From a phage, in NCBI GenBank assembly GCA_014685065.1, contig GCA_014685065.1_3930.1: a stretch of 64,000 bases of DNA; one strand, given 5' to 3'. This document shows positions 15,297-57,408 of this stretch, in pieces (positions within the stretch are counted from its first letter, which is position 1; each line of letters begins with the position of its first letter). The notes below the pieces were generated by a model. It made no database searches. It saw nothing but the letters and a program-made list of their open reading frames with translations, and was not told the DNA's origin. The translations under genes were made by a program, and so were the position numbers.

Positions 15297-15320
15297 ACCT
15301 TGTCAAGTGCATTGTCAACT
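15297..15320. promoter_or_regulatory. conserved motif CACCTTGTCAAGT-N3-TTGTCAAC in divergent intergenic region
   Basis: Near-identical 24-nt element also at 57385-57408; partial copy at 37-49. A TATAAT hexamer lies at 15328-15333. Confidence 0.35.
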
Positions 15321-15378
15321 TGCTTTTTATAATTTTTTGCAGTAATGTATGAGGTTAATGATTTTAGAGGGAGTAAAA

Positions 15379-18078
15379 ATGGAAAACGTAGATTTTAAAA
15401 ACTTACATTTAGTTGGTGATACAGAAACTGATGGTTTACTCCTTGAGTTCACTAAAGTGCACGTAATGGCTTTCGCAGACTATAAATCTGATGATGAAGA
15501 GCCACCTGTATGGGTCTTTACAGATGAGCCTATCCTCGGTCACAAGTACACTAAGTACATCAAGGGTGGCTTACGTGAAGGTATTGAGTTTGCGTTAAAG
15601 GCAAAACGTCTTTGCATCCACAACGGTCTCGGTTATGACTGGTGGGTTTTCAATCACATTGCACCTGATTTATGGAACTTTGATAATCCAAAGTGTAAAC
15701 CGTGGAGTAATTTCTTTCAGGATTCTCTTATTCAGTCTCGTGTTCAATGGATGGATAGACCAACTCCAAAAGGCTATAAAGGTGCTCATGGCTTGGCAGC
15801 ATGGGGTGCTCGTGTTGGTGTTCGTAAACCAGAGATTGAACATTGGGGTGTGTGGAATGCAGAAATCTTCACTCGTGTTGTAGAAGATATCCGTATTAAC
15901 GCCAAAACTAAACGGGCACTTGATAACGAGTATCTCAAGCTTAAGAAGTGTGGCATAGACACTTATGAAACCTACATGCGAGCTAAAGAGACATCTTTCT
16001 GGATGAGCCAGCAAGCTATCAATGGTTGGAAAGCTGATAAAGAGCTTATGGAGTTCCATGTAAAGGAACTTGACAAGCTGACTAATGAGCTTGCTTCAGA
16101 GGTTGAACCACATCTACCTCCAACTATTAAGACCAAAGGTAAAGTAACTGGTGAAGAGTTTGCAAAGGCTTGGAATGAGTATGTTGAAACATTTGGTCAT
16201 GCAGATGGGTTGAAGAGAATCACCAAGTATCCTAAGACGAAGTACCGTCAACAGGTGCGTAACGGTGAGATGCAGACATACGAAATCAAACCATTTGGTA
16301 AGCCAACTACAAAGATTTTTAACATTGAAAAGAGAAATTGCTATACGCCAACCAACTCTGTAACTGGTGAAGAGTACAAGGAAGGTTTTGTAGCAATGAA
16401 GGATGCTCGTGCAATTTGCAATGAGTTGAATGCAAAGATTGGTAAGAAATGCAAAGACTGGAAGCCAGTAAAAACAGTTAAGACTGTGAAGTACTATAAC
16501 AGCCATGTTGTTAACCACTTTGAGCTTGAGTCAAGTCGCTACACAGGTTTGATTGATGCACCATATACACCAATCGAGTTCGAAGTTTCTCGTATGACTC
16601 AGGTAGCAGTTGTTAAAGACTACTTGAAATCAGTTGGTTGGATTCCAGATGACTGGAACTATAAGAAAGACTCTGATGGTCGTCCTGTTAAGGTTTGTCG
16701 CTTCAAAGACAACAAAAAGATGATTACAAAGCATCCTAAATGGCAGGAGATGGTTGAACGGTGTGGTTTGAGTTATGTTGAACATGAAGGTGTCCAGTAC
16801 ATTGAGCATAACTGGTCTGTTAAGAAGTACACAGATTTGCTTGAACCTTGCTTAATCCGTACTTCACCAAAACTTACTGAGTCATCTTATGATACGATTG
16901 AAGGTGAGCTTGGACAGAAGATTGCTAAGTACTATACTTTGATGCACCGACGCAGAACTATTGAGAACTCAAAGGATGATGAAAAAGGTTGGTTGAACCA
17001 GATTCGTCCTGATGGTCGCCTTAGTGCTGGTGCAATGGTGTTTGGTACTTCAACTGGACGTATGACACAATATGGTATTGTAAACGTACCGTCTGGTGCT
17101 GCTGTCTATGGGGAACCAATGAGGGCAGTGTGGATTTGTGAAGAGGGAACCAACGTAGTATCTGTAGATATGAACTCAGCCCAGCTAGTTCTTCTTTGTA
17201 ACTTTATGGGTGATAAAGACTTCACCAAAGCGGTAACGCAAGGTAAAGAAGAGATTGAGTTCATTCGTCAAGAAGATGGACGCTATTACTGCAAACATTT
17301 TGATGAGTACCTCAACCCAGAGATTGATAAGTACCTTCGCTATGACTCTGAGAATGACCTGTACGTTGTCTATTCAGGGACTGATGCACATACACTGAAC
17401 AGTATTTACTTTAACTTGAACGATGAGCAGGACATCTTGACTTGTCGAGCTACTCAGGATGAGAATCTTCTTCATGAGATTAGTAAGGGTCGTAAGAAAG
17501 CTAAGAATGGTATCTATGCACTGCTGTTCGGTGCAGGTGATGAGAAGTTTGCTAAGACGATTAAAGCTGCAACTACTCAGGAAGGTGCGCTGACTAAACA
17601 GACTTACTTTATTCGTTTGCCTAAAATTAAAAAGCTGCTAGATGACTTGGAAGCTGACTACAAAGCAACTAAAAAGGCACTTGAAGAGGTATTTGGTAAG
17701 ACTGCTGCAATCTCTAAAGGTGGTTTTGTAAAGGTTGCTGGAGCTTGGTTGTGGTGTAAATCTCCACACAAATTATTGAACTATCTTTTGATGGGTTCAG
17801 AGGCTCAGATTCAAAATGAGGCGATTAACCTTGCTTGTCGTCGTATGATTGACGAAGGCTTGATGAAGTTGAATGGTCGCAAACCAGCTATTGGTGCTCG
17901 TTTACTCTGCGCATATCACGATGAGACGAGTTGGGAATGTCCAGAAAGCATGACGGCAGAGGTGAAAGCGGTTACTGACTGGTATTATGGACAAGCTTCT
18001 AAGAACTTAGGTCTTAAGAAAGAAACACTTGTTACAGGTACTGGTAAGGTTGGTAAAAGCTGGCTTGAGGTTCACTAA
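15379..18078 (+). CDS. DNA polymerase, family A (T7 gp5-like)
   Basis: Start set at ATG 15379 (strong RBS GAGGGAG); exo motif GDTETDG near the N-terminus, motif B-like RKKAKNGIYALLFGAG, motif C-like YHDETSWE. Confidence 0.9.
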   Translation: MENVDFKNLHLVGDTETDGLLLEFTKVHVMAFADYKSDDEEPPVWVFTDEPILGHKYTKYIKGGLREGIEFALKAKRLCIHNGLGYDWWVFNHIAPDLWNFDNPKCKPWSNFFQDSLIQSRVQWMDRPTPKGYKGAHGLAAWGARVGVRKPEIEHWGVWNAEIFTRVVEDIRINAKTKRALDNEYLKLKKCGIDTYETYMRAKETSFWMSQQAINGWKADKELMEFHVKELDKLTNELASEVEPHLPPTIKTKGKVTGEEFAKAWNEYVETFGHADGLKRITKYPKTKYRQQVRNGEMQTYEIKPFGKPTTKIFNIEKRNCYTPTNSVTGEEYKEGFVAMKDARAICNELNAKIGKKCKDWKPVKTVKTVKYYNSHVVNHFELESSRYTGLIDAPYTPIEFEVSRMTQVAVVKDYLKSVGWIPDDWNYKKDSDGRPVKVCRFKDNKKMITKHPKWQEMVERCGLSYVEHEGVQYIEHNWSVKKYTDLLEPCLIRTSPKLTESSYDTIEGELGQKIAKYYTLMHRRRTIENSKDDEKGWLNQIRPDGRLSAGAMVFGTSTGRMTQYGIVNVPSGAAVYGEPMRAVWICEEGTNVVSVDMNSAQLVLLCNFMGDKDFTKAVTQGKEEIEFIRQEDGRYYCKHFDEYLNPEIDKYLRYDSENDLYVVYSGTDAHTLNSIYFNLNDEQDILTCRATQDENLLHEISKGRKKAKNGIYALLFGAGDEKFAKTIKAATTQEGALTKQTYFIRLPKIKKLLDDLEADYKATKKALEEVFGKTAAISKGGFVKVAGAWLWCKSPHKLLNYLLMGSEAQIQNEAINLACRRMIDEGLMKLNGRKPAIGARLLCAYHDETSWECPESMTAEVKAVTDWYYGQASKNLGLKKETLVTGTGKVGKSWLEVH

Positions 18079-18139
18079 TTAGTATTGACAAGGTGCTCAT
18101 GGAAGAGTACCTTATACTGTATCTTGTATAGGAGGTCAC

Positions 18140-18349
18140 ATGACGCTTTCAGAGATTGAAGTTCAGTTGCAATGTGCAGGTTATTCTCAAAAAGAGATTG
18201 AAGACATGCTTATTGTTATTTGCAGTGGTTATAGAGTAAACCCTGAAGCTCTGCGTATAGCAGATATCTTTATTGCTGGAGGGAAAATCGCAAAAGATAA
18301 GACAGGGTACTTAAAAGGTGAACGTGTAGACATCGAGAATTTGCTATGA
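18140..18349 (+). CDS. hypothetical small protein, paralog A
   Basis: 69 aa; C-terminus GKIAKDKTGYLKGERVDIENLL is shared with the ORF at 18552-18770. Confidence 0.5.
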   Translation: MTLSEIEVQLQCAGYSQKEIEDMLIVICSGYRVNPEALRIADIFIAGGKIAKDKTGYLKGERVDIENLL

Positions 18350-18555
18350 GTCACCGTGGAAGAACCCATGCAGCGATGATGAAAGGTGCTTCAAAGGAAA
18401 CTATCAAGAACCGTAAGCAGAAGTTGTTTGAGAGAATGAATAGACTCATTGATAACACTTCCCTGTCTGGTGGTGAGAAAGTTTTCCTTAAAAGTAACCT
18501 TAAAAGCATTGCACAAGAACTTGTAGATATTGAATATTGGAGACATCAAAAATGA
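18346..18555 (+). CDS. hypothetical basic protein
   Basis: 69 aa ORF, ATGA overlap with the upstream gene. Confidence 0.45.
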   Translation: MSHRGRTHAAMMKGASKETIKNRKQKLFERMNRLIDNTSLSGGEKVFLKSNLKSIAQELVDIEYWRHQK

Positions 18556-18770
18556 CACTTGCAGACGTTATTCAGCAACTTCACGACAATTGCTATACTC
18601 CAGAGTTGATTCAGGAGATGTGTATTGTAGTCATGCCTAGCAAGTTCGTAAAAACCTTTAACAGCGACACTTTAAGGTCTACACACATCCTTATCGTTGA
18701 CGGTAAGATTGCAAAAGACCGTACTGGAGTACTCAAAGGTGAACGTATTGATATTCTGGAGTTGCTATGA
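18552..18770 (+). CDS. hypothetical small protein, paralog B
   Basis: Start set at ATG 18552 (RBS GGAGA); C-terminus GKIAKDRTGVLKGERIDILELL. Confidence 0.5.
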   Translation: MTLADVIQQLHDNCYTPELIQEMCIVVMPSKFVKTFNSDTLRSTHILIVDGKIAKDRTGVLKGERIDILELL

Positions 18771-19036
18771 AGAAAATGTACAGTCTCTGGGGAAGTATTA
18801 TGTGGAAAGCAGTAATTGCGCTTGGTGTTGTTTTTCTATCTGGCTGCAACCCTTCTTATGAAGATAAAAATGCTTCTTACAGTCTCCCACCAGAGATGCA
18901 AGATTGCAGAGTATACAAGTTACATGGTGATGCTATAAGCAGAGATATTGTTGTTGTCAGATGTCCAAACTCCCAAACAACAACATCTTATAGCTATGGC
19001 AAAAATGGTCAATCACACACTACGGTTATTGAGTGA
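18767..19036 (+). CDS. putative lipoprotein
   Basis: 89 aa; hydrophobic N-terminus ending in lipobox-like LSGC. Confidence 0.5.
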   Translation: MKKMYSLWGSIMWKAVIALGVVFLSGCNPSYEDKNASYSLPPEMQDCRVYKLHGDAISRDIVVVRCPNSQTTTSYSYGKNGQSHTTVIE

Positions 19037-19046
19037 GGTTTTCACG

Positions 19047-19253
19047 ATGGAAGTCTTAGTAAACTACATCTATTGTTATGATGTTGTTCACTCCACTACA
19101 ACCGTAGCTCAACGTAATCCAATCGTCCCACGAGAAGGTGAGTTGGTTCGCATTGAGGGTTGGACTTACACTGTGGAAAGCATCATTCATAAGTTTGATG
19201 TTGCTGGCGATGTTCAAGTTATCGACGTAGAGATTGGTGGTAAGAGAAAATGA
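19047..19253 (+). CDS. hypothetical protein
   Basis: Trimmed to ATG 19047 after a GAGG RBS; the longer track ORF overlaps the upstream gene. Confidence 0.4.
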   Translation: MEVLVNYIYCYDVVHSTTTVAQRNPIVPREGELVRIEGWTYTVESIIHKFDVAGDVQVIDVEIGGKRK

Positions 19254-19468
19254 CTGTAGAAGATAAATTTAAGAACGCAGTTCTTACAGAAGATGGTGAG
19301 CTTGAAACATTCATTCTTCGTGTTGATGGTAAGCTATTCCGGTGTCGTTGTGGGTCAAACTGTTTCCACAAACCAGATAAAAATGACTTAGAGCTTTACG
19401 CATGTAATGCTTGCAATACTTGGTATCACTCAGAGGTTAAAAATGACAATTCTGTACAAACAAAATAA
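19250..19468 (+). CDS. hypothetical Cys-rich (zinc-ribbon-like) protein
   Basis: 72 aa with CRCGSNC...CNACN. Confidence 0.45.
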   Translation: MTVEDKFKNAVLTEDGELETFILRVDGKLFRCRCGSNCFHKPDKNDLELYACNACNTWYHSEVKNDNSVQTK

Positions 19469-20543
19469 AGATGGTTCCTTCAACGTCTGGTCATGTGTTG
19501 CTGTAGGTGACAAAGTTATTACAACCTATGGTAAAGAAAATGGCAAGATGATGTTTGAAGAGTATACAGCAGAACCTAAAAACATCGGTAAAAAGAATGA
19601 GCGTAACGCTGAACAGCAAGCCCTCTTTGAAGTTGCTGCTAAGTATAAAAAGCAAGTTGACCGCAAAGGTTATGCTTACACAAAAGAGTCTGCACAGAAT
19701 ACTGAGAAGGTAGGTGTACAGCTTGCTCATGATGCTGCAAAGGTTAGTCATGCAAAGTATCTGAAGTTCCCTGCTGATGCTCAACCAAAACTTGATGGTG
19801 TCCGTTGTAGAATTTCAAGAGATGCTGATTTAGTTAGCTTCACGGCTTATTCTCGTGAGAATACTATTTACAACGTCCCAGCAGAACTAATCCCAGATTT
19901 GCTTTTGTTGCTTAAATTGCATCCACAAGTCGAAGACTTTGATGGTGAGATTTATGCTCATGGTTGGGACTTAGAAGATATTGTGTCTATGATTAAAAAT
20001 GCTGACAATCCAGACCGACATCTACTCCAGTTCTACTGGTACGATATCTGTGACAGTACTAAGACGTGGCCTGAGCGTAGAGATATTATTGAGACTTCAC
20101 CATTGAATGACTTTAGAGATGGCTGTAAAGTTATCCCTGTTAAGTCTCGTCGTGTAAATTCTTGGGAAGAGTTTGATGAAGCTCATGATAAGTGGGTTGA
20201 AGCTAAGTTTGAAGGTGCAATGTACCGTTCAATCTCTGAAGAATCTTTCTATGAGTGTGGTCACCGTTCATACTTCTTGATTAAGCACAAGAAGATGCAC
20301 ACTGAAGAGTTTAAAGTGACTGGTGTAAAGACTGATAAGCGTGGTCATGGTAAGTTCGTTGTAGAGACTCTTCCTAACGTCTTTGTAGATGTCTCATGGA
20401 AGACTACTCATGAGAAGAAACAGTATCTTGCTGAACATCCTGAAGAGTTTATCGGGAAACCTTTGACGGTTCAGTTCCAGAAGATGACTCGTAAAGGTTC
20501 TTTACAGTTCCCTGTTGGGTTAGTTATTCGAGACTACGAATAA
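19443..20543 (+). CDS. ATP-dependent DNA ligase
   Basis: Start set at ATG 19443 (RBS GAGG); adenylation motif I KLDGVRC present; about 366 aa. Confidence 0.85.
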   Translation: MTILYKQNKDGSFNVWSCVAVGDKVITTYGKENGKMMFEEYTAEPKNIGKKNERNAEQQALFEVAAKYKKQVDRKGYAYTKESAQNTEKVGVQLAHDAAKVSHAKYLKFPADAQPKLDGVRCRISRDADLVSFTAYSRENTIYNVPAELIPDLLLLLKLHPQVEDFDGEIYAHGWDLEDIVSMIKNADNPDRHLLQFYWYDICDSTKTWPERRDIIETSPLNDFRDGCKVIPVKSRRVNSWEEFDEAHDKWVEAKFEGAMYRSISEESFYECGHRSYFLIKHKKMHTEEFKVTGVKTDKRGHGKFVVETLPNVFVDVSWKTTHEKKQYLAEHPEEFIGKPLTVQFQKMTRKGSLQFPVGLVIRDYE

Positions 20544-20550
20544 AAAGTTG

Positions 20551-20578
20551 TTGACATAGAAAATTTGGTGAGTATACT
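20551..20578 (+). promoter_or_regulatory. sigma70-like promoter
   Basis: TTGACA (20551-20556) - 16 nt - TATACT (20573-20578), upstream of the 20821 operon. Confidence 0.55.
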
Positions 20579-20608
20579 GAGCAGCATAAACCAACGGGTA
20601 CTCACCAG

Positions 20609-20647
20609 CATCACTTAAGGGTCTTCTAAGAGGGTTTTTAAGTGATG
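20609..20647 (+). repeat. conserved 39-nt hairpin element, copy 1
   Basis: CATCACTTAAgggtcttctaagagggtttTTAAGTGATG, 10-bp stem; near-identical copy at 22001-22039. Confidence 0.6.
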
Positions 20648-20718
20648 TTTGGTGTGGTGCGGTGGTGTGGGGTGTAGTTTTGTGTTGTTAGGTGTTGTTA
20701 GGTGAGGTATGGGTGGAT
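20648..20718 (+). repeat. G/T-only low-complexity tract
   Basis: About 70 nt composed almost entirely of G and T (ggtgtggtgcggtggtgtggggtgt...). Confidence 0.6.
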
Positions 20719-20744
20719 GGTAGTAGCCACGTTAAAAATCTACC
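20719..20744 (+). other. hairpin GGTAG-16 nt-CTACC (covarying with 22111-22136)
   Basis: Second copy has GGCAG/CTGCC with the same loop start tagcc...aaaaat. Confidence 0.5.
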
Positions 20745-20802
20745 AAGTTTCTAAAGAGTCTTCTGTTGAGGGTTCTTTACAAACAACTTAACAATCAACT
20801 AA

Positions 20803-21408
<606 letters not shown>

Positions 21409-21410
21409 TT

Positions 21411-49906: not shown

Positions 49907-50641
49907 TTATTTCTGTAATGCGTTCTTCATTTCTGGTGTTGCAATAGTGTCAATTACACCAGTTTTACAGGCATCATCAAACCAGTCTGGTAAGATACCT
50001 GCTAAGAACCCATTGATATTCGTTTTAAGGTACTCTGCAATAAGGGCAGCTTCTTCTTCAATCATCTGCACAACTTCATCTGCATAAGCTGTAATCTTTG
50101 AGATACCTTCATTAATCTTACTGACAGCTTGGTTAGCTAAATCAGAAACAGTATCAAGACCCTTGTCAATAGCGTCTTGTAAGTCACTTAATACATCGTT
50201 AACACTCTCTAGTGTACTGTTAATCGTATCAATAGCTTTTTGACCATATTCTGTAGCAACACCCATAATACCACTGAACGGTGTACAACCAACTTGTTCT
50301 CCTGCTGCACCCATAACATTGGAATATCCATTTGCTACCTGCATACGTGATGAAAACTCATCAATAGATTTTTGACCGTAGTCTGTCAGGGTCTTAGTAG
50401 TTGCTGTAGTGCTTGTAAGGCTTGTTGTAAAGCTGTTTAGAAGGACTGTTGTAAGTCCAGCAGCAACAAGTTTCTCCTGCATTGTAGGGTCTGTTACAGA
50501 ACTAATAGAGCTTACAAGTGATGTAGAAGCAGCTACGGTTCCACCGAGAACTGCTGCACCAGTAATAAGTGGGTTAGAAAACCCTTTACCGGTTTTTAAG
50601 AGATTAAAAATCTCCTTACCTTGTTCTGTCATCTCTTTCAT
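49907..50641 (-). CDS. hypothetical Ser/Thr/Ala-rich protein embedded in the tRNA array
   Basis: Track ORF trimmed to an internal ATG so it does not overlap the tRNA at 50660-50734; about 244 aa. Confidence 0.4.
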   Translation of the reverse strand: MKEMTEQGKEIFNLLKTGKGFSNPLITGAAVLGGTVAASTSLVSSISSVTDPTMQEKLVAAGLTTVLLNSFTTSLTSTTATTKTLTDYGQKSIDEFSSRMQVANGYSNVMGAAGEQVGCTPFSGIMGVATEYGQKAIDTINSTLESVNDVLSDLQDAIDKGLDTVSDLANQAVSKINEGISKITAYADEVVQMIEEEAALIAEYLKTNINGFLAGILPDWFDDACKTGVIDTIATPEMKNALQK

Positions 50642-51745: not shown

Positions 51746-51750
51746 AAAAT

Positions 51751-51828: not shown

Positions 51829-51829
51829 A

Positions 51830-51904: not shown

Positions 51905-51910
51905 ATGAAA

Positions 51911-51992
51911 GAGGTCTGAAGTTGTGCCGCTAACTCAACTCCGTGGAATTTGTTACGGTCTTCAGTTGACACCAGCGGTCTTTCACTTGACC
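51911..51992. other. tRNA-sized structured element without canonical T-loop
   Basis: Terminal inverted repeat GAGGTC / GACCTC about 80 nt apart with internal hairpins (CCGT...ACGG); no GTTCRA motif on either strand. Confidence 0.35.
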
Positions 51993-51999
51993 TCTGAAT

Positions 52000-52076
52000 T
52001 GGTGCTGCTCACAGGACTCGAACCTGCATTTCCATCCTTACAAGGGATGTGTAATAGCCAATTATACGAAAGCAGC
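52000..52076 (-). tRNA. tRNA-Thr (anticodon TGT)
   Basis: Perfect anticodon stem CATCC/GGATG, loop CTTGTAA. Confidence 0.6.
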
Positions 52077-52082
52077 ATTGTT

Positions 52083-52157
52083 TGGAGCATCCAGAGGGAA
52101 TCGAACCCTCAACCTCAGTTTGGAAGACTGTAATTTTCCCGTTTAAACTATGGATGC
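52083..52157 (-). tRNA. tRNA-Gly (anticodon TCC)
   Basis: Acceptor GCATCCA/TGGATGC, anticodon loop CTTCCAA, T-arm GAGGGTTCGATTCCCTC. Confidence 0.55.
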
Positions 52158-52163
52158 ACTAAT

Positions 52164-52240
52164 TGGTGGAGAAGCAGGGAATTGAACCCTGTACTTAAGT
52201 TTGCAAAACTTATGTTTTAACCATGTAAACTACATCCCCA
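52164..52240 (-). tRNA. tRNA-Ala (anticodon TGC)
   Basis: D-stem GTTT/AAAC, anticodon stem TAAGT/ACTTA with loop TTTGCAA. Confidence 0.6.
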
Positions 52241-52245
52241 ATGTT

Positions 52246-52321
52246 TGGTACAGGTGGAGGGAATTGAACCCATCGTCTTACTGATTAAGAGTCAGCCGCA
52301 TAACCATTTTGCTACACCTGC
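52246..52321 (-). tRNA. tRNA-Lys (anticodon CTT)
   Basis: Anticodon loop CTCTTAA; paralogous in sequence to the Lys(TTT) tRNA at 53966. Confidence 0.5.
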
Positions 52322-52328
52322 ATTAATT

Positions 52329-52405
52329 TGGTACACCTAGAGAGATTCGAACTCACACTGAGCAGATTCTAAGTCTGCTGCCTCTACCAATTGGGCTATA
52401 GGTGC
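52329..52405 (-). tRNA. tRNA with Leu anticodon TAG but short variable arm (class I-like)
   Basis: Acceptor GCACCTA/TAGGTGT, discriminator A, D-loop AATTGGTA, perfect anticodon stem GCAGA/TCTGC with loop CTTAGAA, variable region only about 5 nt. Confidence 0.5.
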
Positions 52406-52663
52406 ATTAAATCTTTTTAGAGAACTTCTAAGAACCTAAGCAACAAGGTTCCACAACAAGCTGTAATAACCTTAGAAGCCCTCTAAAAAGACCTAATTTG
52501 GTCTTTGCATAGTCTTGTTTAATCCGGTGACTAGAACCTTTGGAGAGCTTGATATTATCTCTTCTCCGTGACACCTACTAGGTGCTTTACTGTGCGTGTA
52601 CGACAATACACGAGGGATACCAAAGCAACATCCGAATGAAGCTTGGCTTTAAATCTTATTAGG
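52406..52663 (-). ncRNA. structured non-coding spacer within the tRNA array (candidate small stable RNA)
   Basis: No ORF and no tRNA; several hairpins (CTTCTAAG...CTTAGAAG 8 bp; AGACC-taattt-GGTCT; CGTGTA-cgacaa-TACACG). Confidence 0.3.
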
Positions 52664-52751
52664 CGGTAAGTAAAGGAGTCGAACCCTCACCGTATCTCTA
52701 CAGTGGCAACTGTTTTCAAGACAGTTTGGCTACCATTAGCCGCTACCTACC
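52664..52751 (-). tRNA. tRNA-Ser (anticodon TGA), class II
   Basis: 88 nt; perfect anticodon stem ACTGT/ACAGT with loop CTTGAAA; long variable arm; CCA not encoded. Confidence 0.55.
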
Positions 52752-52764
52752 CCTAATAAGACTT

Positions 52765-52847
52765 TGGCATGGGACGGAGGAGTTGAACCACTTTGAAACG
52801 GTTTTGGAGGCCGTTGCTCATGCCTTAGAGTCTTAACATCGTCCCAC
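52765..52847 (-). tRNA. tRNA-Trp (anticodon CCA), atypical
   Basis: 83 nt; acceptor GTGGGAC/GTCCCAT, anticodon region ACGGC-CTCCAAA-ACCGT; T-stem imperfect. Confidence 0.4.
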
Positions 52848-52989
52848 ACTATAATTCGAAGCTTACCGTATTTTCACAACACTGTAAAGCCCCTTCTCAG
52901 ATTATTTACATGTTCTGGAAAACATGAGATACAGACCACCTCCTTACACGGAGACCCGATAAGGTCGTCTAAGCAATCTGCTAACTATT

Positions 52990-53066
52990 TGGCACACCCT
53001 ACAGGATTCGAACCTGTAACTAACGATTTAGAAGACCGTTGCTCTATCCAATTGAACTAAGGGTGC
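52990..53066 (-). tRNA. tRNA-Arg (anticodon TCT)
   Basis: Anticodon stem ACGGT/ATCGT, loop CTTCTAA; T-arm ACAGGTTCGAATCCTGT. Confidence 0.55.
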
Positions 53067-53313
53067 ATTAATCTTTAAAGACTCTCTTAGAAAGCCCTTA
53101 AAGATGCCCACCTTATTAATCATACCGTGGGCGAGTACGCCAAATTCTTTGATGAGGGATTGGAAGACCTCACTGGTGTTTAGCCTATCAAGCTACTGCC
53201 AGAAAAACATTGTCGTTTGCATTTATTTTAAATTTGCAAAATAGACGCTACGCAACGAAAACTAAGGTTACTATAAAGTGGTCACATCTCAATGTCAACA
53301 ACTTTATTGAAAT

Positions 53314-53389
53314 TGGTACTGTGAGAAGGATTCGAACCTTCTGCCTTTCGGTTATCAGCCGAATGCACATCCATATGTGCTTTCACAGC
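53314..53389 (-). tRNA. tRNA-Ile (anticodon GAT)
   Basis: Perfect anticodon stem TTCGG/CCGAA, loop CTGATAA. Confidence 0.6.
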
Positions 53390-53868
53390 ATTGTTACCCC
53401 TTCGTGTACCTCTCTGTGGCAATTTGCACACAGTAATACACACTTATCAACTTCAGACTTCATTACCTCTATAGAGAAGTGTTTTTGTCCTACTGTGAAG
53501 TCCTTTGTATTAGGGTCTAAGTGGTGAAACTCTAAAGCCTTTATGCACTTATTGTATCCACAAATTGAGCAACAACCACCTTTGTAATCAACTAAAACCC
53601 TCTTAAGTTTGTCACGAGACTTTTTAACGTGTTGTGACTTCGCTTTCTTTTCTTCATCGGGGTTTTTGTATTGTTTCAGAATACCATTTGAAATACATTC
53701 ATCACAATACTTTCTTGATTTTGGTGTTTGTTTTCCACATGAATGACAAGAGCCTTCTTGTCTTCTTTTTGGATGACTCTTGTTGTTTACCCTTGCAGCA
53801 CAAGAGCGTGAACAATATTTTCCGCCTTTAACGGCTTTGTTGTCACAATCTTTATTAGCACAAAACAT
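53383..53868 (-). CDS. HNH homing endonuclease
   Basis: Trimmed to ATG 53866-53868 (RBS GGTGA) so it does not overlap tRNAs; Cys-rich N-terminal region; C-terminal HNH motif EFHHLDPNTKD...CANCHREVH. Confidence 0.7.
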   Translation of the reverse strand: MFCANKDCDNKAVKGGKYCSRSCAARVNNKSHPKRRQEGSCHSCGKQTPKSRKYCDECISNGILKQYKNPDEEKKAKSQHVKKSRDKLKRVLVDYKGGCCSICGYNKCIKALEFHHLDPNTKDFTVGQKHFSIEVMKSEVDKCVLLCANCHREVHEGVTML

Positions 53869-53884
53869 AATATCACCAACGAAT

Positions 53885-53961
53885 TGGAGGTTCAGATGGG
53901 AATCGAACCCACATTCATAGGGCTTATGAGACCCCTGCATTACCTTATCTGCGACTGAACC
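53885..53961 (-). tRNA. tRNA-Met (anticodon CAT)
   Basis: Acceptor GGTTCAG/CTGAACC perfect; anticodon stem GGGGT/GCCCT, loop CTCATAA. Confidence 0.55.
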
Positions 53962-53965
53962 ATAT

Positions 53966-54041
53966 TGGTAGAAGTGGAGGGATTCGAACCCATCGCCTGT
54001 CAGATTAAAAGTCTGCCGCATCACCATTCTGCTACACTTCC
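53966..54041 (-). tRNA. tRNA-Lys (anticodon TTT)
   Basis: Anticodon loop CTTTTAA; T-arm ATGGGTTCGAATCCCTC. Confidence 0.5.
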
Positions 54042-54045
54042 ATTA

Positions 54046-54181
54046 AAATTATCTTTGTAGATAAGCTATCCAGACTTGCTTAAGGTCTGTAGCGATGTGC
54101 CTTGTTGGGTTTAAATCTAGAATTTACCCTTTCACTCTTTGTGGTCGCATACTCACAGGTAAGCTTAATAACTTATCTACA
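54046..54181. repeat. 19-bp perfect inverted repeat flanking a ~98-nt spacer
   Basis: aattatctttgtagataag (54046-54064) is the exact reverse complement of cttatctacaaagataatt (54163-54181); inner CAGAC...GTCTG hairpin. Confidence 0.55.
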
Positions 54182-54241
54182 AAGATAATTACCAGACCGT
54201 TGTTTATCATCTTAAGTGCTACCATTACACCAACTCGACAT

Positions 54242-54266
54242 CTGCCGAGTGAAGGAATCGAACCTT
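54242..54266 (-). other. tRNA 3'-half-like fragment (T-arm plus acceptor 3' strand only)
   Basis: Canonical GAAGGTTCGATTCCTTC T-arm followed by ACTCGGC-A, but no complementary 5' acceptor strand found within 120 nt. Confidence 0.3.
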
Positions 54267-54497
54267 CGCCTTTTCTTTACCGGAGAAATAGATTGTTTAA
54301 GTTTTGCTGTAAACGGTCTTCTGTAAATTTGTTGAGCCAGACCAAGTTTTAAATTTTCAAAATTAAATTGGCTTGAAATTTCATACATTCTTGCTGTATT
54401 TGGTCTTCTGCTCCTTTAAAGAATACTCGTAAGAACCCTTTAAGGGAGGGGCTAAATAGCCCTCTCAAAACATCATCTTGAAATACTTATTATAATT

Positions 54498-54574
54498 TGG
54501 CGGTTACGAAGGGATTTGAACCCTCATCATCTCCCGTGACAGGGGAGTATTTTAACCAGTTAAACTACATAACC
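54498..54574 (-). tRNA. tRNA-Asp (anticodon GTC)
   Basis: Perfect anticodon stem CTCCC/GGGAG, loop CTGTCAC; D-stem GTTT/AAAT. Confidence 0.6.
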
Positions 54575-54580
54575 TTTATT

Positions 54581-54668
54581 TGGTGTGCCGTGTAGGAGTC
54601 GAACCTACCGAGTCTCAATGACAAGGGATTTACAGTCCCCACCGCTACCATCTACGGGATAACGACAC
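54581..54668 (-). tRNA. tRNA-Tyr (anticodon GTA), class II
   Basis: 88 nt; anticodon stem GGGGA/TCCCT, loop CTGTAAA; long variable arm. Confidence 0.5.
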
Positions 54669-54737
54669 ATTTAATTTCTATTCAGGCTAAGGACTTGCAC
54701 CTTACAAATCGGTGAGCAATCGCTTCTCTCCTAAATT

Positions 54738-54814
54738 TGGCGGTTAGTCAGGGATTCGAACCCTGTGCCATTCGCTTAACAGGCGACCGCACATACCTTA
54801 TGTGCTTCCTAACC
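54738..54814 (-). tRNA. tRNA-Asn (anticodon GTT)
   Basis: Anticodon loop CTGTTAA; T-arm CAGGGTTCGAATCCCTG. Confidence 0.5.
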
Positions 54815-54891
54815 TTAATACATTGCCAGACCGTGTTTTTTCTTTTATCCGCAAAAAGTATTTTGTTGCTGAATACGGTCTTCTGCAAAAT

Positions 54892-54968
54892 TGGAGGCGG
54901 GTGCAGGAGTCGAACCTGCCGATACCATGCTAATGAGACATGTGAGACGCCCTTTCTCTATACCCGCA
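54892..54968 (-). tRNA. tRNA with anticodon CAT (Met or Ile2), tentative
   Basis: Anticodon stem CATGT/GCATG, loop CTCATTA (position 37 is T, unusual); 1-72 mismatch in acceptor. Confidence 0.4.
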
Positions 54969-55059
54969 ATTCTTAATGACCAGACCAAATCTCTTCTTTG
55001 TCCGATTTACCTTCAGATGAATAAGATTAAGTTTGCTGTAATTGGTCTTCTGTCAAAAC

Positions 55060-55137
55060 TGGCGTTCCAGAAGGGATTTGAACCCTCAAATATCCACTTT
55101 GAAAGAGTGGTGACTTTACCATTTTGTCTACTGGAAC
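55060..55137 (-). tRNA. tRNA-Glu (anticodon TTC)
   Basis: Perfect acceptor GTTCCAG/CTGGAAC and anticodon stem CCACT/AGTGG, loop CTTTCAA. Confidence 0.6.
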
Positions 55138-55144
55138 ATTAATT

Positions 55145-55224
55145 TGGTCTCCGTTGAAGGATTTGAACCCTCGACCCCTTGCTCCCAAAGCAAGTGCTGC
55201 TAAACCAAACTGAGCTAAACGGAG
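55145..55224 (-). tRNA. tRNA-Pro (anticodon TGG)
   Basis: Perfect acceptor CTCCGTT/AACGGAG and anticodon stem CTTGC/GCAAG, loop TTTGGGA with G37. Confidence 0.6.
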
Positions 55225-55342
55225 ATAAACTTTTCAAACTCTATGTAACCACTTTAACATTATTTTTTAGTGGTTGTCAAGAACTTTTTTAAAATATTTT
55301 TCAGTATCTTAGAAAAGCTCTCATTTCGTTTCTATGTAGAAC

Positions 55343-55371
55343 ATATTAAAGGGTATCAAACACATTGTCAA
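55343..55371 (-). promoter_or_regulatory. sigma70-like promoter reading into the tRNA array
   Basis: On the minus strand: TTGACA - 17 nt - TAATAT; lies inside a GGGTAT...ATACCC hairpin just downstream of the vWA gene stop. Confidence 0.55.
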
Positions 55372-55389
55372 TACCCTTTTTAAAACTTT

Positions 55390-56805
55390 TTACCAGATGT
55401 AACGGTCAATCATTACTGCTTTGAGCATTACGCTGATTGGGTCAAACTTCTCACCACCAAGCAGAGCTTTTAAAGTGGCTGGAGAGAACCCTGATACCAT
55501 TGCTACACCATTATCCTTAACAGATACTTCGCAAGTACCATTACGGTTTGCTAAGTACCAGAATACCAGTTGTGGCATTTTGTATCCAGCTTTTTTGTAC
55601 TTACTACGAATCGCTTCAAAGTTTGTACGACCATTAGCTCCATCAACCTGATTGAACTCCATATCAGAGAAGATAATAAGCTTACTTGGCATATCTTTCT
55701 GAGTCAAGTTGTTTCTCTTACCTGTTTCAAGAATGCGGTCAAAAGCTGCTTGTAAGTTAGTTGAGCCATATTCAACGTGTCGCATCACCTGACGATGACG
55801 GTTTCGTAAATCACCACTCAGTTCGATGAAGTGAGGGTTTGTCGAATAAACCATCAACTCATTCTTAAAGCAACCTGTATTGCGTTCTGCTACATACAAG
55901 GCAAGTGATACACCAATATCCAGAGCAGTAATGGAGCCAAAATTCACCCAAGACATTGAACTTGATACATCAGACATACACAAGATGTTTTCACCTTCTG
56001 CCATCCAGTTTGGTAGTGCTTTCCACTGCTCATTAGCAACATCTGCATTACCATACTTGACAGATTTAATCACATCGTATGGGTAAACAGCACCAGCGTT
56101 AATCTTAGTCTCACCTTTTGATAAGGACTCGATGTAAGCTTTGTAACGCTCTCCATCTTTACGGTTAAACAGTTTTTGGTAACGTGCAGCAGCAAGTGAA
56201 GGAATCTTACTGTAGTCAATCTTACCAAACTCATTAGCAGAGATTTTTTGCTCAACTGTATCAGATAGTGCAGACAACAGTGTGCGATACTCTTTCTCAC
56301 TCAAGTTTGCAAACTTGCAGAAACGTTTTACAAACTGTTTGTGACGTGGTTTTACTCGTGGTAACCACTTAGCTGCTAAACCTGCTGTTGCAGGGTCTAG
56401 TAAAGCTGCTTCTAAATGTTTGAAGGCATCTGTCTCGAAACGAGTACCTACAAAGATTTTGAAGTCATCAAAGCGACCAAGCTCTGCAATCTTATCCATA
56501 ATGCGAAGAACCTGCGTAGGCTCTAAAACTTTATCTTCAATCGCTTGAAGTAAAACAGTTCGGAAAGCTTTACGCTCACCCATACCTTCTCGTACATCTC
56601 GCATATGCAGTAAAATACGAACTGCAACATCAACATCCTCATGCAAAGCTTTGTAGAACAAGTCTGGTAAGATTTCTACATTGCTACGGCTGGAACCAGC
56701 AGCTTTGTAAAAGTCCACAAGAGCAGACATTGATGAAGTATGGTTTACAGCACCATTTTCAGTTCGACCTGCATGAAGGTGCGCATGTTTAAATAATTCG
56801 CTCAT
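55390..56805 (-). CDS. von Willebrand factor A (vWA) domain protein, possibly Ro60/TROVE-like
   Basis: 471 aa; C-terminal region has a MIDAS-like DxSxS motif (MSDVSSSMS) and later LIIFSDMEF; N-terminal half is helical. Adjacent to the tRNA array. Confidence 0.5.
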   Translation of the reverse strand: MSELFKHAHLHAGRTENGAVNHTSSMSALVDFYKAAGSSRSNVEILPDLFYKALHEDVDVAVRILLHMRDVREGMGERKAFRTVLLQAIEDKVLEPTQVLRIMDKIAELGRFDDFKIFVGTRFETDAFKHLEAALLDPATAGLAAKWLPRVKPRHKQFVKRFCKFANLSEKEYRTLLSALSDTVEQKISANEFGKIDYSKIPSLAAARYQKLFNRKDGERYKAYIESLSKGETKINAGAVYPYDVIKSVKYGNADVANEQWKALPNWMAEGENILCMSDVSSSMSWVNFGSITALDIGVSLALYVAERNTGCFKNELMVYSTNPHFIELSGDLRNRHRQVMRHVEYGSTNLQAAFDRILETGKRNNLTQKDMPSKLIIFSDMEFNQVDGANGRTNFEAIRSKYKKAGYKMPQLVFWYLANRNGTCEVSVKDNGVAMVSGFSPATLKALLGGEKFDPISVMLKAVMIDRYIW

Positions 56806-56885
56806 ATTTTACTCTCTTCTCTCATTGTTGTTTGATGTGACAGACTTTAGAGCAACTTTATAGAGTCTGTCAACACCTTTTAAAA

Positions 56886-57257
56886 TTATTTTTTGAGGGT
56901 TGCAACAGCAGAGAACGTTGGTTTGTTATCTGTCTGAGACTGACCGCCGTTATCAGGGGTCTTCTTAGTGTCTGCTGCAATTGCTTTCATCTCACCTGCT
57001 GAGTGAGTCATGATAGTTTTACCGACCTCAATCATACTCTTGATGGTTACGTCATCTGTGTTTAACCCGAACTCTGCAAGCTTAGCCGCGTCCCTTGTAA
57101 CAATCGCCTCAAACAGCTTTGCAGCGAACTCAGCAGAATTATCAATGGTCAGTTGAGCTTTTACGAGTGAGCTTTTGTTACGAGAGCCTTTTGGTCTTCC
57201 AGATGGGTTTCCAGACTGGCCTTTTTTAAACTGGCCTTTGTTTGTTCTGTTTTTCAT
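56886..57257 (-). CDS. small basic protein with AT-hook-like GRP motif
   Basis: 123 aa; N-terminus KGQFKKGQSGNPSGRPKGSRNK. Confidence 0.45.
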   Translation of the reverse strand: MKNRTNKGQFKKGQSGNPSGRPKGSRNKSSLVKAQLTIDNSAEFAAKLFEAIVTRDAAKLAEFGLNTDDVTIKSMIEVGKTIMTHSAGEMKAIAADTKKTPDNGGQSQTDNKPTFSAVATLKK

Positions 57258-57384
57258 TGGTATGCCTCTTATAAGACCTCTTAAAAGGCTTTTAAGATAA
57301 AAGATAGATATCCAGAAAGATATCTGTTTAAATAGCCTTTTTAGAGGAACCTTTTAAGTTATCTTCTAAGTATTTATAAGCCTA

Positions 57385-57408
57385 CACCTTGTCAAGTACT
57401 TTGTCAAC
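57385..57408. promoter_or_regulatory. second copy of CACCTTGTCAAGT-N3-TTGTCAAC motif
   Basis: Near-identical to 15297-15320; sits in the divergent intergenic region between the 56886 (minus) and 57507 (plus) operons. Confidence 0.35.

What the first reader, a model, noticed from the sequence alone, without database searches (positions are those of the whole stretch)
15297..57408. Conserved CACCTTGTCAAGT-N3-TTGTCAAC element at two divergent intergenic regions
Nearly identical 24-nt elements occur at 15297-15320 and 57385-57408, each between divergently oriented operons; a partial copy (CACCTTGTCAAGT) sits at 37-49 next to the nrdD terminator. The tandem TTGTCAA half-sites 12 bp apart look like a binding site for a dimeric regulator or a shared early-promoter element.
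Basis: seen in the sequence. Interest (0 to 1): 0.45.

Follow-up and report, generated by a model that had tools for sequence, protein, structure and literature searches.

The report
Felix O1 twin-box host-type promoters
The repeated 24-base element is real. Read on the opposite strand it is the core of two ordinary host-RNA-polymerase (sigma-70) promoters of a Felix O1-like phage that public records already predict, and the one unexplained feature is a strictly conserved second TTGACA box inside the promoter spacer.

Summary
The window is a Felix O1-like phage (Felixounavirus, about 98% identical to many GenBank genomes). An exact 13-mer sits at 37-49, inside the nrdD terminator stem.

On the minus strand the element reads GTTGACAA-N3-ACTTGACAAGGTG, which is two perfect sigma-70 -35 hexamers 12 bp apart. 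An A-tract precedes the distal box. A TAnnnT -10 follows it 17-18 bp downstream. Both copies point into the leftward gene blocks.

Across diverged genera the two hexamers, a TG and the T, A and T of the -10 never change, while the bases between them vary freely.

The Felix O1 genome paper predicted the second copy as promoter P41. The AYO145A GenBank record annotates both copies as promoters. The identity is therefore already known, though only as predictions: no transcription start has been mapped.

Two things are not described. The proximal TTGACA lies in the spacer, where it cannot act as a -35, yet it is invariant. The same twin-box layout is also conserved, one copy per genome, next to the late sigma-factor gene (gp55) in a large clade of environmental T4-like phages.

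A regulator site overlapping the promoter is not excluded. Interest is low to moderate.

The parts
15296..15319 (-). Copy 1 of the 24-mer. On the minus strand it reads GTTGACAATGCACTTGACAAGGTG. It is the core of the leftward promoter in the intergenic region between ORF 14699-15121 and the DNA polymerase gene (IG1).
   Evidence: annotated 'promoter' on this strand at 15289-15318 in the AYO145A GenBank record
15313..15318 (-). Distal TTGACA of IG1, the inferred -35 hexamer
   Evidence: Perfect consensus. An A-tract plus GCAAG lies upstream. An 18-nt spacer leads to TAATCT. Invariant in Felixounavirus, Suspvirus and Mooglevirus.
15300..15306 (-). Proximal TTGACAA of IG1. It lies in the promoter spacer and its function is unresolved.
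   Evidence: Invariant in all lineages. No -10-like hexamer lies 16-18 nt downstream of it (AAGTGG).
15289..15297 (-). TGT-TAATCT: an extended -10 (TGn) plus a -10 hexamer of the form TAnnnT
   Evidence: Sequence. Mooglevirus has TGG-TAGTCT, so TG and TA...T are kept.
15319..15338 (-). A/T-rich tract upstream of the -35 (AAAAAATTATAAAAAGCAAG), resembling an UP element
   Evidence: The same AAAAAGTTG/AAAAAGCAAG context precedes other TTGACA promoter candidates in the window.
57385..57408 (-). Copy 2 of the 24-mer. On the minus strand it reads GTTGACAAAGTACTTGACAAGGTG. It is the core of the leftward promoter in the intergenic region between ORF 56886-57257 and the genes from about 57508 (IG2). 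It equals Felix O1 'P41'.
   Evidence: Felix O1 paper PMC3185647 section 2.5; AYO145A promoter annotation
57402..57407 (-). Distal TTGACA of IG2, the inferred -35. On the plus strand the same box reads TTGTCA, 18 nt from a conserved TGcAATAGT, so it may serve both directions.
   Evidence: Invariant in 18 unique IG2 sequences from 5 or more lineages. The plus-strand match was listed by the scan.
57389..57395 (-). Proximal TTGACAA of IG2, in the promoter spacer
   Evidence: Invariant, while the 5 bases between the two heptamers (6 between the hexamers) and the 2 bases after this box vary.
57379..57384 (-). -10 hexamer TAGGCT, 17 nt from the distal TTGACA
   Evidence: Other lineages have TAGCCT, TAAGTT and TAGTGT: T, A and the last T are kept and the middle varies.
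57412..57417 (-). AAAAAA tract upstream of the -35, matching a proximal UP subsite
   Evidence: AAAAA retained in all lineages
37..49 (-). Copy 3. ACTTGACAAGGTG starts 2 nt after the nrdD stop codon. TTGACA (42-47) lies 18 nt from TAGGCT (18-23).
   Evidence: conserved in LF82P3, where small ORFs and nrdG follow
1..42 (-). Intrinsic terminator. A 16-bp stem (7-42) and U8 (1-8). Its 5' arm begins with the AAGGTG of copy 3.
   Evidence: dG -23.5 kcal/mol, z -6.3
18085..18113 (+). Copy 4 of TTGACAAGGTG. TTGACA-N17-TACCTT lies directly after the polymerase stop codon and ahead of the gene starting at 18140.
   Evidence: Conserved in Moogle, SUSP2 and LF82P3. Conserved by position in Kolesnikvirus as TTGACA-N17-TATCTT.
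15320..15348 (+). Candidate rightward promoter for the polymerase gene, TTGCTT-N17-TAATGT. It lies back to back with the leftward -35.
   Evidence: TTGCTT and TA..GT are kept while the spacer varies in 5 lineages. The more obvious TATAAT at 15328 is not conserved.
57401..57461 (+). Candidate rightward promoters: TTGTCA-N18-TGcAATAGT (57401-57430) and TTGACT-N17-TACCAT (57433-57461)
   Evidence: both are conserved across lineages
15260..15271 (-). ACTTAAAAGGTT box in the predicted leader, about +12 to +23. It is shared with IG2.
57348..57359 (-). ACTTAAAAGGTT box in the predicted leader, about +14 to +25
55343..55371 (-). Near-copy TTGACAATGTG. TTGACA-N17-TAATAT sits inside a hairpin upstream of the tRNA cluster.
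   Evidence: The Felix O1 paper lists the same hairpin as terminators t42/t43.

Best explanation
The 24-mer is the -35-plus-spacer core of two paralogous promoters used by the host sigma-70 RNA polymerase, and both fire leftward on the window's minus strand.

**What the promoters drive**
- One drives the replication and nucleotide-metabolism block (14699-15121, primase-helicase, nrdA/B, nrdD and onward).
- The other drives the block that starts with the DUF5681 gene (56886-57257) and runs into the 26-tRNA cluster.

**Proposed mechanism**
- The alpha subunits contact the upstream A-tract.
- Sigma region 4 binds the distal TTGACA.
- Sigma region 2 binds TAATCT (18-nt spacer, with a TGn extension) or TAGGCT (17-nt spacer).
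- Transcription starts at about 15282 and 57372. It runs through long, conserved, hairpin-rich leaders that share an ACTTAAAAGGTT box.

**Both directions**
Each box is nearly its own reverse complement (TTGNCAA). The same region therefore also offers a TTGTCA -35 to the rightward promoters. The two intergenic regions act as back-to-back bidirectional promoter regions.

**Shorter copies**
The TTGACAAGGTG copies at 37-47 and 18085-18095 are single-box promoters of the same family. They restart transcription after the nrdD terminator and after the polymerase gene.

**Shown versus inferred**
- Shown: the sequence anatomy, its non-random placement and the conservation pattern.
- Inferred: that these sites are used as promoters, the start sites and the timing.
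- Unresolved: why the proximal TTGACA in the spacer is invariant. It cannot be a -35 for any -10 present. It may be an operator for a shut-off factor or a second docking site for sigma region 4.
For: **Anatomy.** Perfect TTGACA, a 17/18-nt spacer, TAnnnT, and an upstream A-tract that matches the context (AAAAAGTTG-TTGACA) of the other promoter candidates in this phage.

**Orientation and placement.** The two full elements and both single-box copies are non-coding and co-directional with the genes downstream of them. There are no extra copies in a whole related genome.

**Conservation footprint in IG2.** Sequences were gathered through the neighbouring protein, so the sample is not biased towards the element. 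In 18 unique sequences spanning Felixounavirus, Mooglevirus, Suspvirus and two further lineages, both TTGACA boxes, a TG and the T-A...T of the -10 are invariant. The 6 bases between the hexamers, the 2 after the proximal box and the 3 in the middle of the -10 all vary. IG1 shows the same pattern, with TAATCT or TAGTCT.

**More distant relatives.** Hafnia phage Zyzzx keeps AAAAAGTTC-TTGACA-N5-TTGACA, with TACTCT 17 nt from the distal box.

**Independent predictions.** The Felix O1 paper predicts P41 at the IG2 copy. The AYO145A record annotates promoters on this strand at both copies.

**Timing.** Felix O1 RT-PCR places the first genes of both leftward blocks (ORFs 41 and 42; ORFs 97-99) in the same temporal class, peaking at 25 min. 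ORFs 101 and 105 in the IG1 block are detectable by 5 min.

**Recurrence elsewhere.**
- In 75 of 80 loci of an environmental T4-like clade, the sequence reads AAAAGTTG-TTGACA-(4 variable)-GCTTGACA-(5 variable)-TAnAnT, with the -10 17 nt from the distal box.
- A short unrelated contig has GTTGACAAACTACTTGACAAGGTG-CACAAT upstream of co-directional genes.
- Cyanophage P-SSM2 has a single CTTGACAAGGTA box 17 nt from TACAAT in one direction and 17 nt from TATAAT in the other.
Against: - No transcription start has been mapped for any Felix O1-like phage. Two literature searches found none.
- The -10 hexamers match TATAAT at only 3 of 6 positions. The tool's consensus promoter scan did not list either leftward site.
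- A plain sigma-70 promoter does not need the proximal TTGACA, yet that box is as conserved as the -35. No -10-like hexamer lies 16-18 nt downstream of it in any lineage.
- In the T4-like clade the same promoter-like reading points antisense, into the 3' end of the upstream gene. Either such promoters have a role other than making mRNA, or the reading is incomplete.
- The Felix O1 timing data are coarse. Most genes fall in the same 25-min class.
Confidence: 0.72

Rival explanations
1. The two heptamers form an operator. A phage or host DNA-binding protein binds the two TTGNCAA boxes, whose centres are 12 bp apart and so lie on about the same face of the helix. One possibility is a dimer of dimers, as with the Arc and Mnt repressors of phage P22. 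Another is a tandem winged-helix pair, as with OmpR/PhoB-type regulators. Binding would repress or time the overlapping leftward promoters and possibly the rightward ones. This can hold in addition to the promoter reading. As the sole function, with no promoter, it is much less likely.
For: - The proximal box is invariant although it lies in the spacer, where RNA polymerase makes no known base-specific contact.
- The 12-bp period is fixed in Felix-like phages and in the T4-like clade.
- Each box is nearly its own reverse complement.
- The exact 11-13-mer recurs at four promoter-like sites, in two different registers relative to the -10. A protein site overlapping the promoter core would explain this.
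- How Felix O1 times its transcription is stated to be unknown.
Against: - The boxes are direct repeats. The flanks that would extend a palindrome (C...G) are not conserved.
- The 7th base of the proximal box varies in the T4-like clade.
- The central base is always A on the promoter strand, as expected for a -35.
- Hafnia phage Zyzzx has an 11-bp period rather than 12.
- No DNA-binding Pfam domain was found in 20 small proteins around the two regions.
- The layout recurs in phages with no shared candidate regulator. tblastn of the adjacent T4-like ORF against the window found nothing.
- A scan of 185,579 representative bacterial and archaeal genomes found no non-coding copy of the pattern in any host.
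Confidence: 0.25
2. The tandem TTGTCAA boxes on the plus strand would be an activator site that replaces the -35 of the rightward promoters, as a Pho box does.
For: - A Pho box (CTGTCAT-N4-CTGTCAT) shares the TGTCA core and sits about 10 bp upstream of the -10 (own knowledge).
- In this window, TATAAT (15328) and TAACTT (57417) lie 9 nt after the second box.
- In the L048 contig, TATGGT follows the second box at 10 nt.
Against: - The period is 12 bp, not 11, and each box matches the Pho half-site at only 5 of 7 positions.
- The plus-strand hexamers at +9 are not conserved. TATAAT becomes TGAAAC or TGAAGA in SUSP2 and Moogle. TAACTT becomes TAGTTG, TGATAT or TCAGTT.
- The conserved rightward -10 candidates lie at different distances from the element in IG1 and IG2.
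- Copies 3 and 4 have downstream genes only in the TTGACA direction.
Confidence: 0.08
3. The element is mainly a portable cassette or recombination hotspot, like the PeSL promoter-plus-stem-loop repeats of T4-type phages. Alternatively it is a promoter that primes replication through an R-loop, as at the T4 origins oriF and oriG. On this view, making mRNA is secondary.
For: - There is a 35-nt exact identity between window 57383-57417 and a T4-like contig seen in two independent metagenomes.
- About 100 nt of similarity links IG1 and IG2.
- Copies 3 and 4 sit at gene junctions. One overlaps a terminator. In SUSP2 and LF82P3 an HNH endonuclease gene is inserted next to copy 4.
- In the T4-like clade the element is single-copy, lies one small ORF away from the uvsW-like gene (seen in L048), and points antisense. 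That suits a non-coding transcript.
Against: - PeSLs are many-copy repeats with the stem-loop upstream of the promoter and a Shine-Dalgarno sequence at the 3' end (PMC4122927).
- Here there are only 2 full and 2 partial copies, no stem-loop at IG1 or IG2, and leaders of about 115-160 nt.
- No evidence for an origin was obtained. GC skew cannot separate replication from transcription direction at these points.
Confidence: 0.1

Closest known systems
Sigma-70 early promoters of virulent coliphages (T4 early, T5, T7 A1-A3), including the predicted host-type promoters of Felix O1 (P41) and AYO145A
   Same: Consensus TTGACA, a 17-18 nt spacer, a TAnnnT -10, a TGn extension (IG1), an upstream A-tract, placement at the heads of early and middle gene blocks, and dependence on the unmodified host polymerase (own knowledge; for the Felix O1 and AYO145A predictions).
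   Different: A second, invariant TTGACA lies 12 bp downstream, inside the spacer. The -10 hexamers are weak (3 of 6). The two promoters are paralogous over about 100 nt, including a shared leader box. The Felix O1 paper stated that it found no similar sequence in the other divergent region.
Bidirectional (divergent) bacterial promoters that arise from sequence symmetry
   Same: A nearly self-complementary element serves both strands. In IG2 and in cyanophage P-SSM2, one TTGNCAA box lies 17-18 nt from a -10 in each direction.
   Different: The described cases mostly share the -10 region (own knowledge). Here the -35 is the shared element. In IG1 the rightward -35 (TTGCTT) is a separate, adjacent hexamer.
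PeSL promoter-plus-stem-loop cassettes of T4-type phages (PMC2839356, PMC4122927)
   Same: Near-consensus sigma-70 promoter modules with an A/T-rich upstream part, repeated within a phage genome, combined with terminator hairpins (copy 3; the 55343-55371 site), and found at junctions where genes are gained or lost.
   Different: PeSLs are numerous, with the stem-loop upstream of the promoter and a Shine-Dalgarno sequence at the end. Here there are few copies. Where a hairpin is present it encloses the spacer. IG1 and IG2 have long leaders and no hairpin at the element.
Direct-repeat or tandem-dimer operators that overlap promoters (Pho box of PhoB; Arc and Mnt operators of phage P22)
   Same: Two short boxes about one helical turn apart that overlap the -35 and spacer of a promoter.
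   Different: The period is 12 bp, against 11 for a Pho box. The sequence is the sigma-70 -35 consensus itself. No cognate protein was identified. The orientation fits the promoter strand.

Membership tests
sigma-70 (housekeeping) promoter | -35 hexamer close to TTGACA | tested here: met
   6 of 6 at 15313-15318 and 57402-57407 on the minus strand
sigma-70 (housekeeping) promoter | -10 hexamer close to TATAAT, 17 +/- 1 nt downstream | tested here: inconclusive
   TAATCT (18 nt, with TGn) and TAGGCT (17 nt) match at only 3 of 6 positions, though these are the three best-conserved ones. They fall below the threshold of the consensus scan. TA...T is retained in every lineage.
sigma-70 (housekeeping) promoter | Upstream of, and co-directional with, the genes it serves | tested here: met
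   128-175 nt upstream of the first leftward ATGs. Copies 3 and 4 are likewise co-directional.
sigma-70 (housekeeping) promoter | Conservation confined to the contact positions (-35, TG, T-12, A-11, T-7) | tested here: met
   One extra conserved block, the proximal TTGACA, is not part of the family definition.
sigma-70 (housekeeping) promoter | Transcription start 6-8 nt downstream of the -10; open complex formed with sigma-70 holoenzyme | not testable with these tools
   No start-site data for Felix O1-like phages were found.
Pho box (PhoB operator) | Two 7-bp direct repeats CTGTCAT with an 11-bp period | tested here: not met
   TTGTCAA matches at 5 of 7 and the period is 12 bp. Consensus from own knowledge.
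Pho box (PhoB operator) | Replaces the -35, about 10 bp upstream of a conserved -10 on the same strand | tested here: not met
   The plus-strand hexamers 9 nt downstream are not conserved between genera.
PeSL cassette (T4-type phages) | Stem-loop immediately upstream of an early promoter, with a Shine-Dalgarno sequence and ATG at the 3' end; many copies in variable regions | tested here: not met
   No stem-loop at IG1 or IG2. Leaders are about 115-160 nt. There are only 2 full and 2 partial copies. The hairpin at copy 3 overlaps the spacer.
Palindromic operator of a dimeric helix-turn-helix repressor | Inverted repeat of 12 bp or more with conserved symmetric flanks | tested here: not met
   The boxes are direct repeats. 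Only the 7-bp TTGNCAA is self-complementary, and the flanks vary.
T4 middle (MotA-dependent) and late (gp55) promoters | MotA box TGCTT centred at -30, or TATAAATA at -10 | tested here: not met
   TTGCTT at 15320 is at the wrong distance from any -10. TATAAATA at 57370-57377 is not conserved: other genera have TAATAAAAC. Consensus sequences from own knowledge.

The most novel reading that the evidence does not exclude
The twin-box layout may be a distinct promoter class rather than an ordinary promoter with a chance duplication. The layout is an A-tract, TTGACA, a second CTTGACA exactly 12 bp downstream, then a -10 five to six bases later. In this reading the spacer box is read by something: a second contact of RNA polymerase, or a still unknown factor that is widespread or travels with the cassette. 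The layout occurs in Felix O1-like phages. It also occurs once per genome in a large clade of environmental T4-like phages, where it fires away from the late sigma-factor gene and may make a non-coding or priming RNA.
Probability: 0.2. Interest if true: 0.55.

Novelty: already known. Interest (0 to 1): 0.28.

Why it matters
As found, the element explains where host polymerase most likely starts two of the four gene blocks of Felix O1-like phages. It also shows that the two divergent regions share one promoter design. The Felix O1 genome paper missed this for the 96/97 region and left the timing of transcription open. That is useful for annotation and for engineering these widely used Salmonella and E. 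coli biocontrol phages, but it is not surprising.

The part that could matter more is the invariant second -35-like box at a fixed 12-bp offset. It is conserved in two unrelated phage lineages. If it is a control site, it would give a testable entry point into how these phages time early transcription, which is currently unknown. These phages are reported to encode neither an RNA polymerase nor any recognised protein that alters host-polymerase promoter specificity.

Tried and rejected
- **Proximal box as the -35 of a second promoter.** Rejected. No -10-like hexamer lies 16-18 nt downstream in IG1 (AAGTGG), IG2 (TACTTA/CACTTA), the T4-like clade or contig L136.
- **TATAAT at 15328 as the polymerase promoter's -10.** Rejected. 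It is not conserved in SUSP2 or Moogle, and it lies 10 or 22 nt from the boxes.
- **Pho box, MotA box, T4 late promoter.** Spacing or conservation fails in each case (see the membership tests).
- **Known RNA family.** Rfam at gathering thresholds found only tRNAs in the window.
- **Structured leader RNAs.** Both leaders fold better than shuffled sequences (z -2.9 and -3.1). An alignment fold of five IG1 lineages gave a covariation term of +0.48 kcal/mol (not stabilising) and few double changes. Inconclusive and not pursued.
- **Candidate regulator.** Pfam found no DNA-binding domain in 20 small proteins next to the two regions.
- **Exact 24-mer matches in gut-metagenome phage contigs, an Akkermansia MAG and another contig.** These are coding coincidences: GTT GAC AAx GCA CTT GAC AAG GTG encodes V-D-K/N-A-L-D-K-V. 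They are not evidence of transfer.
- **Literature.** A search for the motif string and two searches for Felix O1 start-site or RNA-seq data found nothing relevant.
- **Shared protein between the T4-like locus and the window.** None.

Full report
**What the window is.** Megablast of both regions finds about 250 phage genomes at 95-99% identity. All are Felix O1-like myoviruses (Felixounavirus). About 40 more match at 80-90%: Suspvirus, Mooglevirus and others. The window runs in the opposite orientation to the Felix O1 reference record. It holds four gene blocks:
- leftward, 51-15121 (NrdD, primase-helicase and others)
- rightward, 15379 to about 25700 (family A DNA polymerase first)
- leftward, about 26400-57257 (DUF5681 gene, 26 tRNAs, structural genes)
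- rightward, from about 57508 (includes a lysozyme)

These assignments rest. They correspond to the four 'transcriptons' of the Felix O1 genome paper, which places divergent promoters between genes 96/97 and 40/41 (PMC3185647).

**The observation.** The two 24-mers are at 15296-15319 (one base off in the finding) and 57385-57408. They are the only matches with up to 3 mismatches, against zero expected. The 13-mer occurs three times, against 0.01 expected. The bare heptamer is not enriched.

The similarity between the two intergenic regions extends over about 100 nt. It includes an exact 12-mer, ACTTAAAAGGTT, on the minus strand.

A fourth exact copy of the 11-mer TTGACAAGGTG lies at 18085-18095 on the plus strand, right after the polymerase stop codon. 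A complete related genome has nothing further in the part outside the window.

**Which strand.** On the minus strand the element reads GTTGACAA-N3-ACTTGACAAGGTG. That is two perfect sigma-70 -35 hexamers 12 bp apart.

The distal box has what a strong promoter needs:
- An A-tract lies just upstream (AAAAAGCAAG or AAAAAAGTTG). Other TTGACA promoter candidates of this phage share that context.
- A TAnnnT hexamer follows at 18 nt (TAATCT, preceded by TGn) or at 17 nt (TAGGCT).

Both promoters point into the leftward blocks. The two single-box copies are also co-directional with their downstream genes, and each has TAnnnT at 17-18 nt:
- Copy 3 overlaps a strong terminator (16-bp stem, U8). A transcript started there would begin inside the 3' arm and escape termination.
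- Copy 4 precedes the gene starting at 18140. It is conserved by position as far as Kolesnikvirus.

**Conservation footprint.** IG2 sequences were collected through the neighbouring protein, so the sample is not biased towards the element. They gave 18 unique sequences from at least five lineages. In these, both TTGACA hexamers, a TG and the T, A and final T of the -10 are invariant. The six bases between the hexamers, the two after the proximal box and the middle of the -10 all vary: TAGGCT, TAGCCT, TAAGTT, TAGTGT.

IG1 is more uniform. There, only the N3 positions of the element and the first middle base of the -10 (TAATCT in most lineages, TAGTCT in Mooglevirus) vary.

Among more distant subfamily members:
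- Hafnia phage Zyzzx keeps a twin box with an 11-bp period and TACTCT at 17 nt.
- Kolesnikvirus has single boxes or boxes spaced far apart.
- Pectobacterium phage Wc4-1 has TTGACAGGTG plus an inverted box.

This is the pattern expected for a -35/TG/-10 promoter, with one addition. The proximal TTGACA lies at about -23 to -18, where RNA polymerase makes no known base-specific contact, and it is as conserved as the -35. It cannot be the -35 of a second promoter, because no lineage has a -10-like hexamer 16-18 nt downstream of it.

**The other direction.** TTGNCAA is nearly self-complementary, so the boxes read TTGTCA on the plus strand.
- In IG2 the distal box lies 18 nt from a conserved TGcAATAGT. 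A second fully conserved candidate, TTGACT-N17-TACCAT, follows.
- In IG1 the conserved rightward candidate is TTGCTT-N17-TAATGT, directly abutting the leftward -35. The obvious TATAAT at 15328 is not conserved.

Both regions therefore look like back-to-back bidirectional promoter regions.

**Prior knowledge.** The Felix O1 paper predicted 'P41, TTGACA(N15)TATAGG'. Those coordinates correspond to the IG2 copy. The paper also stated that no other similar sequence was found in either divergent region, that the phage encodes neither its own polymerase nor any apparent modifier of host-polymerase promoter specificity, and that temporal control is unknown.

The AYO145A GenBank record annotates minus-strand promoters at the positions that correspond to 15289-15318 and about 57373-57407. 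[quoted passage not shown]

In the Felix O1 RT-PCR table, ORFs 41 and 42 and ORFs 96-99 all peak at 25 min. That agrees with a shared promoter design, but the evidence is weak because most genes fall in that class.

The identity as predicted host-type promoters is therefore already public. The paralogy of the two promoters, the twin box, and copies 3 and 4 are not described in anything I could find.

**Occurrences outside the family.** Scans of three public collections for the exact pattern returned Felix-like contigs plus a few others.

Several of the others are coding coincidences, because the 24-mer encodes V-D-K/N-A-L-D-K-V. These are a gut-phage group, an Akkermansia MAG, and one further contig whose reading frame continues RQLSGYSYNY, which from memory resembles a tail-spike chaperone domain (not tested).

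Two are not coincidences.
- A short contig has the 24-mer followed directly by CACAAT, upstream of co-directional small genes.
- A T4-like contig, seen in two metagenomes, shares 35 exact bases with window 57383-57417. The match lies in the spacer between a 127-aa ORF and the late sigma-factor gene gp55.

Following that lead, I examined 80 relatives collected through gp55. Of these, 75 carry the twin box at the same place. It is single-copy even in contigs of 100-177 kb.

The information profile on the TTGACA strand reads AAAAGTTG, TTGACA, four variable bases, GCTTGACA, five variable bases, TAnAnT. This is the same layout, with the same 12-bp period and the same 17-nt distance from the distal box to the -10.

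In that clade the promoter reading points away from gp55, into the 3' end of the upstream co-directional gene. I cannot explain this.

Cultured relatives have related sigma-70-like promoters at this spot. P-SSM2 has a single CTTGACAAGGTA box 17 nt from a -10 in each direction.

**Weighing the readings.** The promoter reading accounts for the strand, the placement, the A-tract, the spacing and the conservation pattern. It agrees with independent annotations. I put it at about 0.7.

It does not account for the proximal box. An operator that overlaps the promoter remains possible as an added function, at about 0.25. The arguments against it:
- The boxes are direct repeats.
- The palindrome flanks are not conserved.
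- The central A is fixed.
- The period is 11 bp in Zyzzx.
- No DNA-binding domain was found nearby.
- The layout recurs in phages that share no evident regulator.

A mobile-cassette or origin-promoter role is suggested only by the 35-nt identity and the antisense, single-copy arrangement in the T4-like clade.

**Verdict.** This is a real, non-random element. It is ordinary in kind (host-type phage promoters) and already predicted in public records. It carries one unexplained, conserved detail that would be cheap to test.

Noticed in passing
L151-L230 (gp55 ATG at about 701 of each locus); L231-L304: A large clade of environmental T4-like phages carries one twin-box element per genome, within about 60 nt upstream of the late sigma-factor gene gp55. 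On the strand pointing away from gp55 it is a near-ideal sigma-70 promoter: AAAAGTTG-TTGACA-N4-GCTTGACA-N5-TAnAnT. That direction is antisense to the upstream gene.
   Followed up: partly
L048:1163-1197 and L118, versus window 57383-57417: A 35-nt exact identity links the Felix-like IG2 promoter and a 32% GC T4-like contig found in two independent metagenomes. Chance cannot explain it. The likely causes are transfer of a promoter module or very strong shared constraint.
   Followed up: partly
window 57258-57372 (-) and 15122-15282 (-): The predicted leaders of both leftward blocks are long (about 115 and 160 nt). The IG2 leader is almost invariant between genera, at least as conserved as the adjacent coding sequence. 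Both contain hairpins or palindromes (AGATATC-N6-GATATCT; AGCTTTT-A-AAAAGCT; ACGTAT-AGA-ATACGT, with one compensatory change in Moogle). They fold better than shuffled sequences (z about -3). Whether the constraint acts on RNA structure or on DNA operators is undecided.
   Followed up: partly
window 55225-55390 (-): Two more consensus promoters lie ahead of the tRNA cluster, and each has a hairpin over its spacer. TTGACA-N17-TAATAT lies within the hairpin GGGTAT...ATACCC. TTGACA-N18-TAAAGT has the stem AACCACT...AGTGGTT over its spacer and -10. The Felix O1 paper lists the first hairpin as bidirectional terminators t42/t43.
   Followed up: no
window 57370-57377 (-): TATAAATA, the T4 late-promoter consensus, sits at the predicted start site of the IG2 leftward promoter, ahead of the block that ends in the structural genes. 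It is not conserved in other genera (TAATAAAAC), and no gp55 homologue is reported for Felix O1.
   Followed up: partly
L030:7934-7977, L111:6032-6055, L143: The 24-mer also arises inside coding sequence, because it encodes V-D-K/N-A-L-D-K-V. In L143 the frame continues RQLSGYSYNY, which from memory resembles a tail-spike chaperone domain (not tested). Motif scans of large collections need this caveat.
   Followed up: yes
L058:3711-4238; L056:538-1017; L057:468-944: HNH homing-endonuclease genes are inserted next to the polymerase gene at different sides in different genera. In SUSP2 (and, by flanking sequence, LF82P3) the insertion lies between the polymerase gene and promoter copy 4. In Kolesnikvirus it lies upstream of the polymerase gene.
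   Followed up: no
window 22-32 and 50152-50162: An 11-mer, TATCAAGACCC, is shared between the loop region of the nrdD terminator and a site inside the ORF between two tRNA groups. In both places TTGTCAA follows it, directly at 50163 and 9 nt later at 41. About 0.03 such matches are expected by chance.
   Followed up: no
window 58883-59767 (+): The fourth gene of the rightward IG2 block encodes a protein with two immunoglobulin-like domains (Pfam Ig_3 and Ig_2, E 1e-20 to 1e-23). The AYO145A record annotates it as a tail protein.
   Followed up: no
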